Positions 9,242 through 13,227 of a stretch of 59,390 bases of DNA are shown piece after piece. The DNA is from a virus (Duplodnaviria; Caudoviricetes). Below the pieces are notes generated by a model. The model had not been told where the DNA came from and ran no database searches. It was given only the letters and a program-made list of their open reading frames with translations. Position 1 is the first letter of the stretch. The number at the start of each line of letters is the position of its first letter. Made by a program: the position numbers and the translations under genes. The stretch spans positions 1 to 59,390 of the IMG/VR virus record IMGVR_UViG_3300036784_000179. One strand, given 5' to 3'.

Positions 9242-9436
9242 TTGAAAACCGCGCATCTCGACCTGCGCGTCGAGCCCGAGCTTATCGAGGCGATCGACGC
9301 CTGGCGCAACCGGCACCAAGTGCCGCCGTCACGCGCCAGGACCATCGCCTACATGCTCGCGGGCTGGCTCGAGGAGCGCGGCTGCGAACCGATCATCGAG
9401 ACGCCCCTGTCACGGCGCCGCGGCCGGCCGAAATAA
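9242..9436 (+). CDS. Ribbon-helix-helix (Arc/CopG-like) regulator
   Basis: TTG start; LDLRVEPELIEAIDAWR...PSRARTI; paralogue of 52378-52581. Confidence 0.75.
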   Translation: MKTAHLDLRVEPELIEAIDAWRNRHQVPPSRARTIAYMLAGWLEERGCEPIIETPLSRRRGRPK

Positions 9437-9442
9437 ACCCTC

Positions 9443-9472
9443 TTGCAATCTGCCCGGCACATCGGGCAGATT
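9443..9472 (+). promoter_or_regulatory. Putative promoter/operator, copy 2 (or terminator)
   Basis: TTGCAA overlapping perfect inverted repeat AATCTGCCCG-N6-CGGGCAGATT. Confidence 0.55.
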
Positions 9473-9509
9473 TGTCAGTGAACAGGGCACCGACGAGCCG
9501 GGAAGAGAA

Positions 9510-9704
9510 ATGAGCGACCAGAACCATCGGCCCTTTACCCACGCCACGCAATTAGCCGCAAAGGCTTTTGTCGCGACCGATCCATGGGAAAAGCAGTTAT
9601 GGCTCGAAGAGGCAAATGCGGCGTTGACCCGCGCCTGGACCGAGCTTGCCGCATCCACCAAAGCAAACCAGGAGGGGAAGCATGGCTCGCAAGACGCGCG
9701 GTAA
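9510..9704 (+). CDS. Hypothetical helical protein
   Basis: 64-aa ORF with purine-rich RBS, first gene of the peptide-system operon. Confidence 0.6.
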   Translation: MSDQNHRPFTHATQLAAKAFVATDPWEKQLWLEEANAALTRAWTELAASTKANQEGKHGSQDAR

Positions 9705-10077
9705 ACGTCAGCTGCTGACCTCCGCCGCCGTGGGCGTTGGGCTCGTCGGCATCCCGGCGCAGGCGGCGGTATGGATCGACGACGGCAAAATCTATTTGCG
9801 CGAGGGCGGGCAGGTGACCGAGGTGCCGACCACCCCCGCATTGCTCGACGCGCTACGCGCCACCGGCGGCAACGCCAAGCTGTCGAGCGATCCCAAGCTG
9901 ATCATGTCGGGGGGTGGCGGCGCTGCCTTTAGCTTTTTTGGACGACAAAACAAAACGCCGGAAGCACCCCCTTCGTCCGCAAATCCGATCACGACGACGC
10001 CTTCCTCACAACCACAAGCTCAACCTCAGAACCCCAATAAATCTAAAGAACAGGAGTCCAATGACGTAAAAAAATAA
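9682..10077 (+). CDS. Exported protein with IMSGGGGAAF motif and disordered tail
   Basis: GGAGGG RBS; Tat/Sec-like leader MARKTRGKRQLLTSAAVGVGLVGIPAQA. Confidence 0.75.
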   Translation: MARKTRGKRQLLTSAAVGVGLVGIPAQAAVWIDDGKIYLREGGQVTEVPTTPALLDALRATGGNAKLSSDPKLIMSGGGGAAFSFFGRQNKTPEAPPSSANPITTTPSSQPQAQPQNPNKSKEQESNDVKK

Positions 10078-10101
10078 ATGCAGGCGGTCGGGGAGGTAGA
10101 C

Positions 10102-10452
10102 ATGATCGCACGACTATTTGGCGGACTATTTTTAGGGGGAATGTTAATCCCAGCAACCGCGCCCGCCCCAACTTACATGATTTCTCAGCCAATGATCGCC
10201 GGCACGATTATCCTACACATCGTGCCGGCAAACGAAATGGTTGCCCAATGCGGGGCTCAGGCAAGCGCATGCTCCAACCACTGGTTCCACCCGCCTTGTG
10301 AGATCTGGGTGCCTACGGGTCCAATAATCGAAGCCACCCCCGGTCTCCTTTCAGCGCACTTTGAAGACCCTGAGGTAGCGGACGCGCTCGCCCACGAGAT
10401 TCTGCACTGTGGCGCAGGATATTGGCATCCAACCCCAATATGCTCTGGCTGA
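10102..10452 (+). CDS. Small exported zincin-like metallopeptidase
   Basis: GGAGGT RBS; hydrophobic N-terminus; LAHEILHCGAGYWH (HExxH plus third His). Confidence 0.7.
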   Translation: MIARLFGGLFLGGMLIPATAPAPTYMISQPMIAGTIILHIVPANEMVAQCGAQASACSNHWFHPPCEIWVPTGPIIEATPGLLSAHFEDPEVADALAHEILHCGAGYWHPTPICSG

Positions 10453-10552
10453 CGACCAGCGCGGCTAGGGTCATTTCCGAAAAGCCGGCATCCCCATCAC
10501 CGGCCTGCCTCGACCCTTCAAGGATGGGGAAAACAGCGGAAAGAAAAACCCA

Positions 10553-10732: not shown

Positions 10733-10770
10733 GGGTCGCCCGCTTCAAAGGGCGACCCCTTCATCTTTTT
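10733..10770 (+). terminator. Stem-loop after the precursor gene (leaky terminator or mRNA stabiliser)
   Basis: GGGTCGCCC-N8-GGGCGACCC then CTTCATCTTTTT. Confidence 0.65.
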
Positions 10771-10780
10771 CGAAAAGCCA

Positions 10781-11449
10781 ATGCGTAAGATCTCACAAAT
10801 CATTCACATGCCCGACGAGCGCTCGGTGGAAGTCGAAGGCGAAACGCGCGGCGACCGGCTGCGGCTGCGCGCGCGGCTGGTCGATTGCGGCATCGTCGTC
10901 GAGAGCTTGATGCGCGATTATGATGCTGTTGACCGCGACGCGCCTGCCAAATTTCAGAGGGAATTCGAGGCCATCACCTCCCTCGCCATCGCCGGCCCGC
11001 TGTTCCCGCACGACCTGACTTCGCTACGCTGCCCTGCCGCCCCGCCCCATTGGCGGGATGCCGTCGTCTTTGGGATCGTGGTTGGCACGCCCGGGCGACC
11101 GCAAGTGCAATACATTCCGCCCGAACCCTTAACACCATCACTGATCGAGACTGCTGCGCCATGCACGCCGCGGGAGGTGTTCCGTATCGCCGCGGTGTGC
11201 GTTAAGGACCGCTGCCCGCATTGGCAAGAGGACAGCTTGGGCGCCGAAAATGATGGTCGTTGCTCGCTCGTCGAACGGGTGGTCGAGGGCTTCGAGCCGG
11301 TCAATTTACACCCCTGCGGTATCCGGTCGGTCTGCCGATGGTTCGCGCAAGAGGGGCCGCCAGCCTGCCGTGTCTGTCCGGGTGTCGCCACCGATATCGG
11401 CGAGCTGCCGCAGGACGCCGAGGCCGAGGTAAATGTCACGTTTTTTTGA
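10781..11449 (+). CDS. Cys-rich putative metal-binding protein, candidate peptide-maturation factor
   Basis: C-terminal domain with CPAA, VFRIAAVCxxxxCPH, C, PCxIRxxCRWFxQEGxxACxxCP (nine Cys). Confidence 0.75.
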   Translation: MRKISQIIHMPDERSVEVEGETRGDRLRLRARLVDCGIVVESLMRDYDAVDRDAPAKFQREFEAITSLAIAGPLFPHDLTSLRCPAAPPHWRDAVVFGIVVGTPGRPQVQYIPPEPLTPSLIETAAPCTPREVFRIAAVCVKDRCPHWQEDSLGAENDGRCSLVERVVEGFEPVNLHPCGIRSVCRWFAQEGPPACRVCPGVATDIGELPQDAEAEVNVTFF

Positions 11450-11581
11450 GATGCTGCGCCGCTGGCTTATGAGTTTGGTCGGCGATGATGCGCTTTCGCG
11501 GGAGTTCGCTCGCGACTACCAAGTCCAACAAATTGCCTTTGATCCGGTCGAGGAAATCCAGCAGCACCAGCTGCGGCTGCG

Positions 11582-12724
11582 ATGAGCCGAGCGCCCCGCG
11601 ACTATGTGCTTCTTCTGGCGGCCGCCTTTGCCTGGGGGTCGACCAGTTCCCAGCTGACCATGCTCCCGGTCATCCTGCGCGATCATGGGATGAGCCCGCC
11701 GCAGATCGCCGTCGTGCTGTCAACGATCTTTATCGTGATGGTACCCGGGCCCCTGCTGAGTGGCGCGCTGGCGGCGCGGATCGGCACAAAGCCGACGATG
11801 ATATGGGCCGCGCTGGTGTTGTGCGCCACATTGGCCTTGTTGCCGTGGAGCCTCGATTCGGTGGCGCTGGCGACGCTAACCTCGGCGGTGCGGGGTCTCG
11901 CGCTCGGCTTGTTCACACCGGCGGGTCAAACCTTTGCCCAATCACAGACAACCGAAGACGACCGCGCCCGCAAGATCGCCTGGTTCACCGCGATGTTTTT
12001 GATCCCGATGTTCGGTGGCCCGGCGATCGGCCAGTGGTCGTTGCGCGAGCTTGGCGAGCCTTGGTTCTTTGTGCTGACGGCAGCGCCCACGCTTAGCGCG
12101 TTGATCATGCTGTGTTTGCTGCGCTCGACCGAGGCCGCAGCCTCGCGCGCTTCCGGTTATCTGACCCTGCTCGGTGACCGGCGGCTGTGGTTGCCAAATC
12201 TGGCGACGATGCAATCCGGGCTGGCCTACGGATTTGCCTCTACCATGCTGCCGTTGTTGCTGGTCGAGCGCGGGTTCCTCGTGGCGCTGTTCTTCACACC
12301 CTTTTCGCTGGCGCTGCTAGTGATCCGCTTTGGCGGCATGAACTACCTGCAGCGACTGTCGCCGCCAAAGGTGGCCGGGCTCGGATTGCTCGCCTATGCC
12401 GGCGGCCTGTGCTTTTTGATCGTCCCAACCGCACCCGCCATGGTTGTCGCTGCCGGTTTGTTTGCGATCGGCTACGGCGTCATGCTGCCCATCTGTGTGG
12501 CCTGGTCGACGTCGTATTATCCGCGCACCGAGCGGGCGCGCCCGGTGGCGCTGGCCAACACCTCGTTCAATATCGGGAGCATCGTGGCCGTGCAGATGGC
12601 TGGGACGCTGCTGCCGGTGCTCGGCTGGTCGGGCGTGCTGGTGGTGCTCGCGATCCCCGTCACCGTCTCGATGGTCGCGATGACTGCGGAGATCCCACAT
12701 GCGCGGCTGCAGACAAAACGATGA
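11582..12724 (+). CDS. MFS transporter (probable exporter)
   Basis: 380 aa, ~12 hydrophobic helices, MFS motif A-like SGALAARIGTK. Confidence 0.9.
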   Translation: MSRAPRDYVLLLAAAFAWGSTSSQLTMLPVILRDHGMSPPQIAVVLSTIFIVMVPGPLLSGALAARIGTKPTMIWAALVLCATLALLPWSLDSVALATLTSAVRGLALGLFTPAGQTFAQSQTTEDDRARKIAWFTAMFLIPMFGGPAIGQWSLRELGEPWFFVLTAAPTLSALIMLCLLRSTEAAASRASGYLTLLGDRRLWLPNLATMQSGLAYGFASTMLPLLLVERGFLVALFFTPFSLALLVIRFGGMNYLQRLSPPKVAGLGLLAYAGGLCFLIVPTAPAMVVAAGLFAIGYGVMLPICVAWSTSYYPRTERARPVALANTSFNIGSIVAVQMAGTLLPVLGWSGVLVVLAIPVTVSMVAMTAEIPHARLQTKR

Positions 12725-12818
12725 TCGCTTTTGGGAAAACGGTCGCCTAGACAATTGAAATGCGTGCGAAGTGACCGTACATATAGAGCACGGCACCACC
12801 GCATTTTTGGAGCTGCGA

Positions 12819-13187
12819 ATGAGCGAACCCAACAACTCCATCGCCGATGTCGCGGTCTCTGCCTATGCCGGCGCGCGCGCCGCGCAGGGCGATTTCACCC
12901 CCTTGGTCTTTGTGCTGCTCTTCGCCGGCCTCGGCGGCAGCACCTTCACCGGTCTGCTCGGATGGTATATCGCCCTGATGATCATCGCCGCCGCGATCAT
13001 CCTGCCGGTTCTCGGCTTGATCCGGCTGGGCCGTTGGCTGGTGCCAAAACTGGTCCAGCATTTGCCCCCGGCGCACATCCCCGCCGTATCGACGGCGATT
13101 ACCATATTCACCCCGGCCGGCTGGGTATTCGTCGCCATCGGCCTGATCGTCTGGGGCCTGGCCGTCCTACTCCTGGCACCCGTCTAA
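12819..13187 (+). CDS. Small membrane protein (~3 TM)
   Basis: GGAG RBS before MSEPNN; hydrophobic helices; last gene of the moron. Confidence 0.65.
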   Translation: MSEPNNSIADVAVSAYAGARAAQGDFTPLVFVLLFAGLGGSTFTGLLGWYIALMIIAAAIILPVLGLIRLGRWLVPKLVQHLPPAHIPAVSTAITIFTPAGWVFVAIGLIVWGLAVLLLAPV

Positions 13188-13203
13188 AAACCGCTGAAAA
13201 CTG

Positions 13204-13227
13204 CCGGCCCCCGCGGGCCGGTTTTTT
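13204..13227 (+). terminator. Rho-independent terminator closing the moron
   Basis: CCGGCCC-ccgc-GGGCCGG-TTTTTT. Confidence 0.85.

What the first reader, a model, noticed from the sequence alone, without database searches (positions are those of the whole stretch)
9242..13227. Phage moron resembling an undescribed peptide (RiPP or signalling) system: multi-core precursor, HEXXH peptidase, Cys-rich protein and MFS exporter
Seen: a self-contained plus-strand island inserted between minus-strand virion genes, with its own RHH regulator, operator-like repeats and terminator. Gene order is RHH, 64-aa protein, exported GGGG-motif protein, exported HExxH protein, precursor with 5 x TGGASIR, stem-loop, nine-Cys protein, MFS, membrane protein. 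Known: precursor-hairpin-modifier-transporter layout and multi-core precursors are typical of RiPP clusters, and phage peptide communication is established for Bacillus arbitrium. Inferred: this phage makes and exports a short, possibly modified peptide as a signal or antimicrobial. No classical RiPP enzyme (radical SAM, YcaO, LanM, ATP-grasp) is present, so any chemistry would be new or host-supplied.
Basis: partly seen in the sequence, partly recalled or inferred. Interest (0 to 1): 0.92.

Follow-up and report, generated by a model that had tools for sequence, protein, structure and literature searches.

The report
Phage-borne repeat-peptide, Cys-rich partner, exporter module
A temperate soil phage carries a conserved three-gene cassette (a small peptide with five identical seven-residue repeats, an uncharacterised cysteine-rich protein predicted to grip the peptide's leader, and a membrane exporter) that looks like a new kind of ribosomal-peptide production system.

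Summary
The island is real, but only part of it is a system. The conserved unit runs from 10458 to 12724. It comprises an int-alpA RNA motif, a 57-aa peptide (helical leader plus 5 x TGGASIR), a hairpin, a 222-aa Cys-rich protein and an MFS transporter.

This unit recurs in four other non-redundant metagenome lineages, one of them a second phage. Their repeat units differ in sequence and number (2-4 copies), while the leader is conserved.

The Cys-rich domain belongs to a large family: 945 clusters at 50% identity. It has no Pfam or NCBIfam model and no fold match in PDB or BFVD. Its relatives almost always sit just downstream of a small peptide gene. One clade has GG/AG-type leaders followed by HlyD and a C39-ABC exporter.

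A co-fold places the peptide's leader helix on the Cys domain (score 0.72, best control 0.02).

The RHH-like ORF, the 64-aa ORF, the GGGG protein, the HExxH protein and the last membrane protein have no relatives in any related locus, so they are not shown to belong. No modification chemistry is shown.

Best reading: a RiPP-like peptide maturation and export module of a new enzyme family, carried as a phage moron (confidence about 0.55).

The parts
9187..9201 (+). First copy of a 15-nt direct repeat (second copy at 9442-9456). Operator/promoter-like. Not shown to be functional.
   Evidence: family D8 (93% identity, two copies only); sequence
9242..9436 (+). 64-aa RHH-like ORF (TTG start). Not part of the conserved module.
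   Evidence: No Pfam/PHROG hit. NCBIfam only a sub-threshold hit. No homologue in 59 related loci.
9510..9704 (+). 64-aa ORF of unknown function. Not part of the conserved module.
9682..10077 (+). 131-aa protein with one N-terminal hydrophobic segment and a GGGG motif (listed as 143 aa from 9646). Not part of the conserved module.
   Evidence: AGGAGG before the ATG at 9682; TM-like segment 14-32. No homologue in related loci.
10102..10452 (+). 116-aa ORFan with an HExxH motif and 5 Cys (listed as 124 aa from 10078)
   Evidence: Only itself found in the 5.8-billion-protein search. No family.
10458..10529 (+). int-alpA RNA motif (Rfam RF02996), the 5' leader of the peptide operon
   Evidence: 36.2 bits against a gathering score of 35.8. 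The same motif lies just upstream of the precursor in L005 (39.9 bits), L009 (31 bits) and L003 (26.4 bits).
10553..10726 (+). 57-aa precursor-like peptide: leader helix (residues 1-22) plus 5 x TGGASIR
   Evidence: relatives; alignment A3
10615..10722 (+). 21-bp tandem repeat, 5.1 copies, encoding the repeated units
10733..10758 (+). G+C-rich stem-loop between the precursor gene and the Cys-rich gene, followed by a T-rich tract
   Evidence: -23.1 kcal/mol for the intergenic stretch. Equivalent hairpins in L002, L009 and L003.
10781..11014 (+). N-terminal accessory domain of the 222-aa protein (four strands plus a helix)
   Evidence: AF2 block pLDDT 76-96 over residues 1-70. It is a separate 77-aa ORF downstream of the Cys gene in L004-L008 (hhalign 94.4%, E 9e-8).
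11012..11449 (+). 8-Cys domain of an uncharacterised family. Predicted docking site for the leader.
11582..12724 (+). MFS transporter, the presumed exporter
   Evidence: Pfam MFS_1 9e-36; phrog_2034. An MFS gene lies directly downstream of the Cys gene in 8 of 8 type-A loci with downstream DNA.
12771..13187 (+). 138-aa membrane protein with 3 hydrophobic segments. Not part of the conserved module.
   Evidence: no homologue in related loci
13203..13222 (+). Terminator-like hairpin with a T-run that closes the plus-strand island

Best explanation
The functional unit is a mobile cassette at 10458-12724, carried as a moron in the tail-gene region of a temperate soil phage.

Proposed mechanism:
1. 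Transcription starts with an int-alpA RNA leader. A 57-aa peptide is then translated.
2. The peptide's N-terminal amphipathic helix (residues 1-18) docks on the C-terminal 8-Cys domain of the adjacent 222-aa protein. That domain is presumably a metal centre (Fe-S or Zn).
3. The Cys-rich protein acts on, or holds, the Gly-rich repeat region. Every unit, and also the leader-core junction, is preceded by Arg. Cleavage after Arg would therefore release up to five identical hepta-peptides.
4. The MFS transporter exports the small product.
5. The hairpin after the peptide gene would keep peptide mRNA in excess over enzyme and exporter mRNA.

Shown by tool results: conservation of the peptide family, its linkage to the Cys-rich gene and the MFS gene, the RNA motif, and the hairpin.
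Predicted: leader binding.
Inferred: metal binding, any modification, cleavage after Arg, export, and the biological role (antimicrobial, signal or other).
For: Peptide family:
- tblastn finds the 57-aa ORF directly upstream of the Cys gene in 6 of 59 related loci, and the MFS in 9 of them.
- The translations show the same leader with different repeats: TGSGAIR x2; MRFGAGSG x2; R[FY]GGGGD[IMV] x4; TGGASIR/TGGGMIR/TGSGAIR.
- Nine further called small proteins of 42-89 aa share the leader and 2-3 units (E 3e-7 to 6e-4 against 5.8 billion proteins).
- The 3 variable sites among the window's five units are all synonymous.

Linkage and RNA elements:
- An MFS gene lies directly downstream in 8 of 8 type-A loci with downstream DNA, which is 4 of 4 non-redundant groups.
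- A hairpin follows the precursor stop codon in 4 of 5 lineages.
- The int-alpA motif precedes the precursor in the window and in all 3 other lineages with upstream DNA. Two are above the gathering score and two are at E 2e-4 and 5e-3.

Co-fold:
- Score 0.72, best of 3 controls 0.02. This mark was reached by 58 of 80 solved complexes and 2 of 110 mismatched pairs. The counts hold only roughly because my own alignments were used.
- The runs agree in at least 43% of their contacts. Partner pLDDT is at least 49.
- The interface is peptide residues 1-18 against protein residues 99-112, 124-134 and 203-207.
- The tool's verdict is that the model supports binding; it does not show it.

Family context:
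- 23 of 37 non-redundant groups with at least 250 nt of upstream DNA have an upstream small ORF that is conserved in another group.
- One clade has GG/AG-leader peptides followed by HlyD. In L029 this is HlyD plus Peptidase_C39-ABC.
- Precursor type tracks the Cys-domain tree. Type A forms one clade with 100/100 support.
- The module also sits in a second phage contig at a different genomic position.
Against: - No known RiPP enzyme class, peptidase or immunity gene is present in the conserved module.
- The Cys domain has no conserved His, Asp or Glu. Its only invariant or near-invariant residues are Cys, Pro, Ser, Arg, Trp, Gly, Leu and Ala. Catalysis is therefore not evident, and the protein might only bind the peptide.
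- The repeat region was not confidently placed in the co-fold, and the partner's pLDDT is about 50.
- Eleven type-C groups have 80-90-aa upstream proteins. No exporter matching my MFS, HlyD or C39-ABC exemplars was found beside them. The family is therefore not always tied to export.
- Some relatives carry a leader-like helix fused to the Cys domain without any repeats. These are weak hits (E 0.009-0.13).
- The peptide and Cys genes have weak or no Shine-Dalgarno sequences.
- There are no expression data.
Confidence: 0.55

Rival explanations
1. Unmodified peptide system. The peptide is exported or released without chemical modification. The Cys-rich protein is then a leader-binding chaperone, export adaptor or immunity factor, as in class II microcin/bacteriocin loci where the gene next to the precursor confers immunity.
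For: - The type-B relatives have exactly the microcin-like layout: GG-leader peptides, the Cys gene, HlyD, then C39-ABC.
- The Cys domain has no catalytic-looking conserved residues other than Cys and Arg.
- The co-fold shows binding of the leader only.
Against: - An immunity protein would be expected to meet the mature core rather than the leader. Known immunity proteins are usually membrane proteins (recalled), whereas this protein has no hydrophobic segment.
- Eight Cys conserved across phyla in a protein with no hydrophobic or TM-like segment (no signal-peptide predictor was run) suggest a metal centre.
Confidence: 0.18
2. Intracellular two-protein complex. The small protein and the Cys-rich protein form a complex with a role unrelated to peptide export, such as redox or metal sensing or regulation. 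The MFS transporter moves some other small molecule.
For: - Type-C pairs have no exporter matching my exemplars beside them. They sit in varied contexts: a contractile-tail cluster in L045, and next to giant Rhs/Tc-like ORFs in L043 and L064.
- Fused leader-like helix plus Cys domain proteins exist, as weak hits.
Against: - MFS linkage holds in all four type-A groups despite only 35-56% MFS identity.
- Variable tandem repeat cores behind a conserved leader are typical of precursor peptides rather than of a structural subunit.
- GG-leader peptides with a C39-ABC exporter occur in type B.
Confidence: 0.15
3. Phage communication peptide. The exported hepta-peptide is a density signal that tunes the lysis-lysogeny decision, in the manner of arbitrium.
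For: - The phage is temperate: an integrase gene lies at 2248-3336.
- Two different phages carry the module.
- The island has an RHH-like ORF and repeats nearby.
Against: - No receptor-type gene was found: no TPR or HTH receptor family among the island proteins.
- The peptide has no TM-like N-terminal segment.
- The module also occurs in loci where I saw no phage genes, for example L009 next to a 905-aa ORF that I read by eye as a glycosidase (not family-scanned).
- The RHH-like ORF is not conserved with the module.
Confidence: 0.05
4. Non-coding repeat. The 21-bp array is a DNA- or RNA-level element (iteron, attenuator or structured RNA), and the 57-aa ORF is a by-product of it.
For: - All three plus-strand frames and two of the three minus-strand frames are open across the array.
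- Each unit contains a small palindrome.
- The ORF is followed by a terminator-like hairpin, as in attenuators.
- The synonymous-site test cannot exclude one antisense frame.
Against: - Relatives keep the peptide motif [TFY]-G-x-G-x-[IM]-R and the leader helix while the DNA units differ in sequence and length (21 and 24 bp), and the palindrome is not kept in L002.
- Gene callers of two sources predicted the homologues as proteins.
- The start codon lies at the usual distance after an int-alpA motif.
Confidence: 0.04

Closest known systems
Small modified-peptide systems exported by MFS pumps, such as microcin C7 (MccA-F, pump MccC) and pantocin A (PaaP/A/B, pump PaaC).
   Same: A very short precursor gene, adjacent maturation gene(s), and an MFS pump. 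The product would be about the size of one repeat unit (7-8 residues).
   Different: No homologue of an adenylating (MccB/PaaA-type) or any other known enzyme is present. The core is repeated 2-5 times. The partner is an 8-Cys domain of no known family.
Class II microcin / double-glycine bacteriocin loci: precursor, immunity gene, HlyD-type protein and C39-ABC exporter (microcin V type, recalled). Cyanobacterial examples are in PMC3140520 (passages seen).
   Same: Type-B relatives of the Cys-rich gene have GG/AG-leader peptides, HlyD and, in L029, Peptidase_C39-ABC in this order.
   Different: In the window the leader has no GG site and the exporter is an MFS. The gene in the 'immunity' position is a protein without hydrophobic segments and with 8 conserved Cys, predicted to bind the leader.
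Multi-core RiPP precursors such as cyanobactins, microviridins and thiovarsolins (recalled)
   Same: One leader is followed by several copies of a core, and copy number and unit sequence vary between relatives.
   Different: The units abut directly, without recognition spacers. No YcaO, ATP-grasp, protease or other class-defining enzyme is present.
RiPP recognition elements (PqqD-like RRE domains, recalled)
   Same: A small domain of the partner protein is predicted to bind the leader of the precursor.
Phage-encoded bacteriocin/RiPP gene clusters (bioRxiv 10.1101/2020.10.01.322628; listing and abstract only)
   Same: A temperate phage carries a peptide gene cluster as cargo.
   Different: That survey rests on known BGC classes. 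This cassette would not be recognised by family-based tools, because only the MFS gene has a model.
Arbitrium (AimP/AimR/AimX) of Bacillus phages (recalled)
   Same: A phage-encoded short peptide.
   Different: There is no AimR-like receptor, no TM-like N-terminal segment on the peptide, and a different likely host type (int-alpA is described from Proteobacteria, recalled). See the membership test.

Membership tests
RiPP biosynthetic gene cluster (generic definition) | Short precursor gene with a conserved leader and a variable core | tested here: met
   Alignment A3: invariant leader positions A8, R11, A12 and R16, with variable repeat cores of 2-5 units
RiPP biosynthetic gene cluster (generic definition) | Adjacent enzyme of a recognised modifying class (radical SAM, YcaO, LanM, ATP-grasp, MNIO and others) | tested here: not met
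   No Pfam or NCBIfam family for the 222-aa protein or for 123 family members. There is no CxxxCxxC motif; the Cys spacings are C-x4-C, C-x5-C and C-x2-C.
RiPP biosynthetic gene cluster (generic definition) | Leader recognised by a cluster-encoded protein | tested here: inconclusive
   The co-fold passes its mark (0.72 against a best control of 0.02; 58 of 80 solved complexes and 2 of 110 mismatched pairs reach it). This is a prediction, and the partner's pLDDT is about 50.
RiPP biosynthetic gene cluster (generic definition) | Post-translationally modified product | not testable with these tools
   Needs mass spectrometry
Major facilitator superfamily | Match to Pfam MFS_1 above the gathering score, with multiple TM segments | tested here: met
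   123.9 bits against a cut-off of 33.4. Seven or more hydrophobic segments by a crude scan.
int-alpA RNA (Rfam RF02996) | Covariance-model score at or above the gathering score | tested here: met
   36.2 against 35.8 bits, full-length match to model positions 1-71
Ribbon-helix-helix regulators | Match to an RHH/CopG/Arc-type family model | tested here: not met
   No Pfam or PHROG family at E up to 0.1. Only a sub-threshold NCBIfam hit: 15.3 bits against a cut-off of 38. The sequence pattern looks RHH-like by eye only.
Zincin (HExxH) metallopeptidases | Match to a peptidase family beyond the five-residue motif | tested here: not met
   No family. The only hit in the 5.8-billion-protein search is the protein itself.
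Arbitrium communication system | AimR-type TPR/HTH receptor next to the peptide gene | tested here: not met
   No such family among the eight island proteins
Arbitrium communication system | Pro-peptide with an N-terminal secretion signal | tested here: not met
   No hydrophobic segment in the 57-aa peptide (crude hydropathy scan)
Double-glycine bacteriocin / microcin loci | GG-type leader cleavage site and a C39-peptidase ABC exporter | tested here: not met
   The window's peptide has an Arg-Thr junction and the exporter is an MFS. The feature is met only in type-B relatives; Pfam confirmed it for L029, with tblastn hits elsewhere.
Known anti-phage defence systems (PADLOC) | Match to a PADLOC model | tested here: not met
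   Only one marginal hit (E 0.01, no stretch passing on its own) for the GGGG protein. None for the module genes.

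The most novel reading that the evidence does not exclude
The 8-Cys domain defines a widespread, undescribed class of leader-binding metalloproteins (at least 945 clusters at 50% identity, across several phyla). These would mature ribosomal peptides by chemistry not yet known. 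The window shows a phage-mobilised form that turns a tandem-repeat precursor into several copies of a small Gly-rich product exported by an MFS pump, under an int-alpA RNA leader. In short: a new RiPP class that spreads on phages.
Probability: 0.33. Interest if true: 0.88.

Novelty: new variant of a known kind. Interest (0 to 1): 0.72.

Why it matters
If the reading holds, four things follow.
- A protein family of roughly a thousand 50%-identity clusters, with no Pfam or NCBIfam model and no match among solved or viral predicted structures, gains a testable role as the partner of ribosomal peptides. That would open a possible new RiPP class which current genome-mining tools cannot see.
- It would show that soil phages move such cassettes between hosts.
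- It would give the int-alpA RNA motif a concrete context, as the 5' leader of cargo genes.
- The tandem-repeat precursor offers an easy read-out: up to five identical hepta-peptides per molecule.

Tried and rejected
Searches that found nothing or led nowhere:
- blastn of the island against 50,697 phage records: no match.
- Single-protein pattern scans for the Cys-rich protein in genome contigs and viral contigs: no relatives. Only the alignment-based scans worked.
- PDB sequence search with profile A1: 0 hits at E up to 1.
- First AF2 run with 18 sequences: Cys domain pLDDT about 40, unusable. The deeper alignment fixed this.
- Fold of the N-terminal domain: only weak PDB matches (Pur-alpha, PC4-like; E about 0.1). 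No conclusion drawn.
- ESM Atlas: related clusters carry the automatic name 'nitrogen fixation protein'. I could find no basis for this name. No Pfam or NCBIfam nif family matches, and the 'named' search gave no usable hit.

Literature:
- Searches found no description of this Cys-rich family or of a repeat-peptide/MFS cassette.
- The int-alpA search found two papers that mention the motif. I saw their listing only.
- Passages of PMC11118758 and PMC3140520 held nothing relevant.
- Supplementary files were not opened. Table S2 of PMC3140520, which lists domains found in cyanobacterial bacteriocin clusters, might bear on the family.

Sequencing runs:
- No RNA holder is listed. Two soil-metagenome DNA runs hold the stretch and may be its source.
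- Their contigs stop inside the repeat, so neither copy number nor expression could be checked.

int-alpA generality:
- 80 viral loci carrying an int-alpA-like pattern contain neither the Cys domain nor the precursor (hmmsearch, no hits).
- The RNA motif is therefore a general leader of cargo genes and is not specific to this cassette.

Idea rejected:
- That the repeat is only a DNA or RNA element. See the rivals.

Idea not pursued:
- Geometry of the metal site.

Full report
**Setting.** The window is one complete virus record of 59,390 bp, with a completeness estimate of 99%. It encodes an integrase at 2248-3336 (PHROG_1, E 9e-41), so the phage is temperate. The plus-strand ORFs at 9242-13187 lie between minus-strand genes:
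- 8012-9319, with tail-fibre and virion-structural PHROG hits;
- 13226-14008, phrog_5880;
- 14011-16662, with an endolysin-type domain, followed by further virion and tail genes.

A terminator-like hairpin with a T-run at 13203-13222 closes the island. Calling it a 'moron in the tail region' is therefore correct.

**What in the island has relatives.** Of the eight island proteins, only the transporter matches any family: Pfam MFS_1 at 9e-36 and phrog_2034. PADLOC gives nothing for the module genes. The HExxH protein is an ORFan, because only the protein itself turns up among 5.8 billion sequences. I ran tblastn with eleven proteins from the window (eight from the island and three from the flanks) against 59 loci that encode relatives of the Cys-rich protein. 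Only the 57-aa ORF (6 loci) and the MFS (9 loci) were found. The RHH-like ORF, the 64-aa ORF, the GGGG protein, the HExxH protein and the 138-aa membrane protein gave no hit. These five ORFs are therefore not shown to belong to the system.

**The repeat peptide.**
- TRF finds a 21-bp unit repeated 5.1 times at 10615-10722.
- In the 10553-10726 frame this gives five identical TGGASIR units behind a 22-residue leader.
- The three variable columns among the units are all third codon positions. One antisense frame shares that property, so this test alone is not decisive.
- What decides the matter is the relatives. The ORF directly upstream of the Cys-rich gene in other lineages has the same leader (consensus approximately M-x-x-K-L-I-E-A-A-K-K-R-A-L-A-x-R) but different cores: TGSGAIR x2 (L004-L008), MRFGAGSG x2 (L009/L010), R[FY]GGGGD[IMV] x4 (L003) and TGGASIR/TGGGMIR/TGSGAIR (L002).
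- A protein search found nine more called small proteins of 42-89 aa with the same architecture.
- Each unit, and also the leader-core junction, is preceded by Arg.
- The repeat is thus a peptide-level feature with variable copy number, as in multi-core precursors.

**The Cys-rich protein.**
- It has 10 Cys.
- Its first 78 residues fold confidently as four strands plus a helix. In L004-L008 this part is a separate 77-aa ORF placed after the Cys-domain gene (hhalign 94.4%, E 9e-8).
- Residues 78-222 form the conserved domain. A profile search of 1.84 billion representatives gave 945 proteins at E up to 1e-3 and 493 at E up to 1e-10. Most are stand-alone proteins of 130-190 aa.
- Eight Cys are invariant or nearly so, together with Pro, Ser, two Arg, Trp and Gly.
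- None of 123 members matches a relevant Pfam or NCBIfam model, and no PDB sequence matches.
- With 123 sequences, AF2 gives a confident model: pLDDT 91.3, pTM 0.85.
- The ESM Atlas holds similar clusters from Bacteroidota, Acidobacteriota, Actinomycetota, Cyanobacteriota and Pseudomonadota.

**The conserved cassette.**
- In the type-A lineages (L002, L003/L060, L004-L008, L009/L010, plus the window) an MFS gene follows the Cys gene directly. This holds in 8 of 8 loci with downstream DNA, or 4 of 4 non-redundant groups.
- A strong hairpin with a T-rich tail follows the precursor stop codon in the window, L002, L009 and L003. It is weak in L004.
- An unexpected addition is an int-alpA RNA motif (RF02996) just upstream of the precursor: window 10458-10529 at 36.2 bits (gathering score 35.8); L005 at 39.9 bits; L009 at 31 bits (E 2e-4); L003 at 26.4 bits (E 5e-3).
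- I scanned viral contigs for an int-alpA-like pattern. In 56 of 60 distinct loci an ORF of at least 50 aa starts 25-55 nt after the pattern, mostly 35-44 nt. At random positions the rate was 462 of 1200.
- In the window the 57-aa ORF starts 45 nt after the pattern. This is the usual position of the first gene behind this leader.
- None of those 80 loci carries the cassette. The RNA is therefore a general leader of cargo genes.
- L003/L060 is a second phage contig (69 kb). There the cassette lies between replication genes and the small terminase subunit. The cassette is thus mobile cargo.

**Leader binding.** A co-fold of the 222-aa protein (121-row alignment) with the peptide (12-row alignment) scored 0.72, 0.71 and 0.79. 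The best of 3 controls scored 0.02. The pass mark was reached by 58 of 80 solved complexes and 2 of 110 mismatched pairs. These counts hold only roughly because my own alignments were used. The runs agree in at least 43% of their contacts, and the partner's pLDDT is at least 49. The interface is peptide residues 1-18 (the leader helix) against residues 99-112, 124-134 and 203-207 of the Cys domain. The tool's verdict is that the model supports binding; it does not show it. The repeat region is not placed.

**Wider family context.** The related loci fall into 40 non-redundant groups, of which 37 have at least 250 nt of upstream DNA. In 23 of these 37, an upstream same-strand small ORF is conserved in another group: type A 4, type B 6, type C 11 and type D 2. 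Eight more have a singleton small ORF that I judged by eye, and six have none recognised.
- Type B has two peptides with GG/AG-type leaders. The Cys gene, a HlyD-type gene and a further gene follow; in L029 Pfam confirms that last gene as a Peptidase_C39-ABC exporter, and three other loci give tblastn hits to it. HlyD lies directly downstream in 12 loci.
- L061 has three GG-leader peptides upstream and an outer-membrane efflux gene downstream.
- Type C is mostly from Bacteroidota. It has 80-90-aa upstream proteins, and no exporter matching my exemplars was found beside them.
- Radical SAM genes lie within 1.1-1.4 kb in two groups only.
- Precursor type follows the Cys-domain tree: type A is one clade at 100/100 support. 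Shared ancestry of the loci would give the same pattern, so this does not prove co-evolution.

**Interpretation.**
- Shown: a conserved, mobile cassette made of RNA leader, repeat peptide, hairpin, 8-Cys protein and MFS.
- Predicted: the leader docks on the Cys domain.
- Inferred: the domain holds metal and modifies or processes the Gly-rich units; cleavage after Arg releases hepta-peptides; the MFS exports them. A product of about 7 residues is in the size range of peptide antibiotics known to use MFS pumps (recalled).
- Points against an enzyme role are the lack of conserved acid or base residues, the type-C loci with no exporter found beside them, and weak hints of leader-like helices fused to the Cys domain without repeats.
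- I put the RiPP-like maturation and export reading at about 0.55. The rivals are an unmodified-peptide chaperone or immunity role at about 0.18, an intracellular complex at about 0.15, phage communication at about 0.05, and a non-coding repeat at about 0.04.

**Limits.**
- There are no expression data. Only two soil DNA runs hold the stretch, and their contigs break in the repeat.
- Gene calling in the related loci used my own crude ORF rules.
- What is known about int-alpA (Weinberg and colleagues) is recalled and was not read here.

Noticed in passing
L066-L145 (viral contigs) and window 10458-10553: The int-alpA motif is catalogued in Rfam as an sRNA gene. In 56 of 60 distinct viral loci it is followed at a nearly fixed distance (mostly 35-44 nt after the conserved GCCTG) by the start of an ORF of at least 50 aa. 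The ORFs belong to many different families. At random positions the rate was 462 of 1200. It behaves like a cis 5' leader of phage or satellite cargo genes.
   Followed up: partly
L003 / L060 (IMG/VR contig of 69,469 bp), 7604-9700: A second phage contig carries the same cassette: int-alpA-like motif, a 93-aa ORF with four 8-residue repeats, a hairpin, the Cys-domain gene and an MFS gene. Here it lies between primase/helicase-like genes and the small terminase subunit, not among tail genes.
   Followed up: partly
L045 7159-8895: A small-protein plus Cys-domain pair (type C) is inserted between two T4 gp19-type tail-tube genes. The surrounding cluster looks like a contractile injection system.
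   Followed up: no
L043 47-8402; L064 22-8399: Type-C pairs in Bacteroidota lie just downstream of giant Rhs/Tc-like ORFs (2505 aa, and at least 1911 aa), together with a shared 160-171-aa Cys-containing protein.
   Followed up: no
P0022, P0025 (also P0038, P0098): Some relatives carry a leader-like helix fused N-terminally to the Cys domain, followed by a Trp-rich stretch and no Gly-rich repeats. The hits to the leader profile are weak (E 0.009-0.13 in a set of about 180 proteins).
   Followed up: partly
window 10471-10486 and 10764-10779: A 16-nt direct repeat (88% identity) contains the CGAAAAGCC core of the int-alpA motif. It recurs just before the start codon of the Cys-rich gene, after the hairpin. 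This may be chance (family D7).
   Followed up: no
L024/L025 and L037/L040: Radical SAM genes (one with a SPASM domain, one with a B12-binding domain) lie 1.1-1.4 kb from the Cys-domain gene in two groups only.
   Followed up: no
window 10001-11000: G+C dips to 0.587 here, against 0.63-0.68 around it. The dip covers the ORFan HExxH gene and the start of the cassette, which suggests a mosaic origin for the island.
   Followed up: no
window 14011-16662 (-): An 883-aa protein has an endolysin/peptidase-type domain near its N-terminus and long Pro/Ala/Gly-rich regions. It is probably a tail-associated lysin.
   Followed up: no
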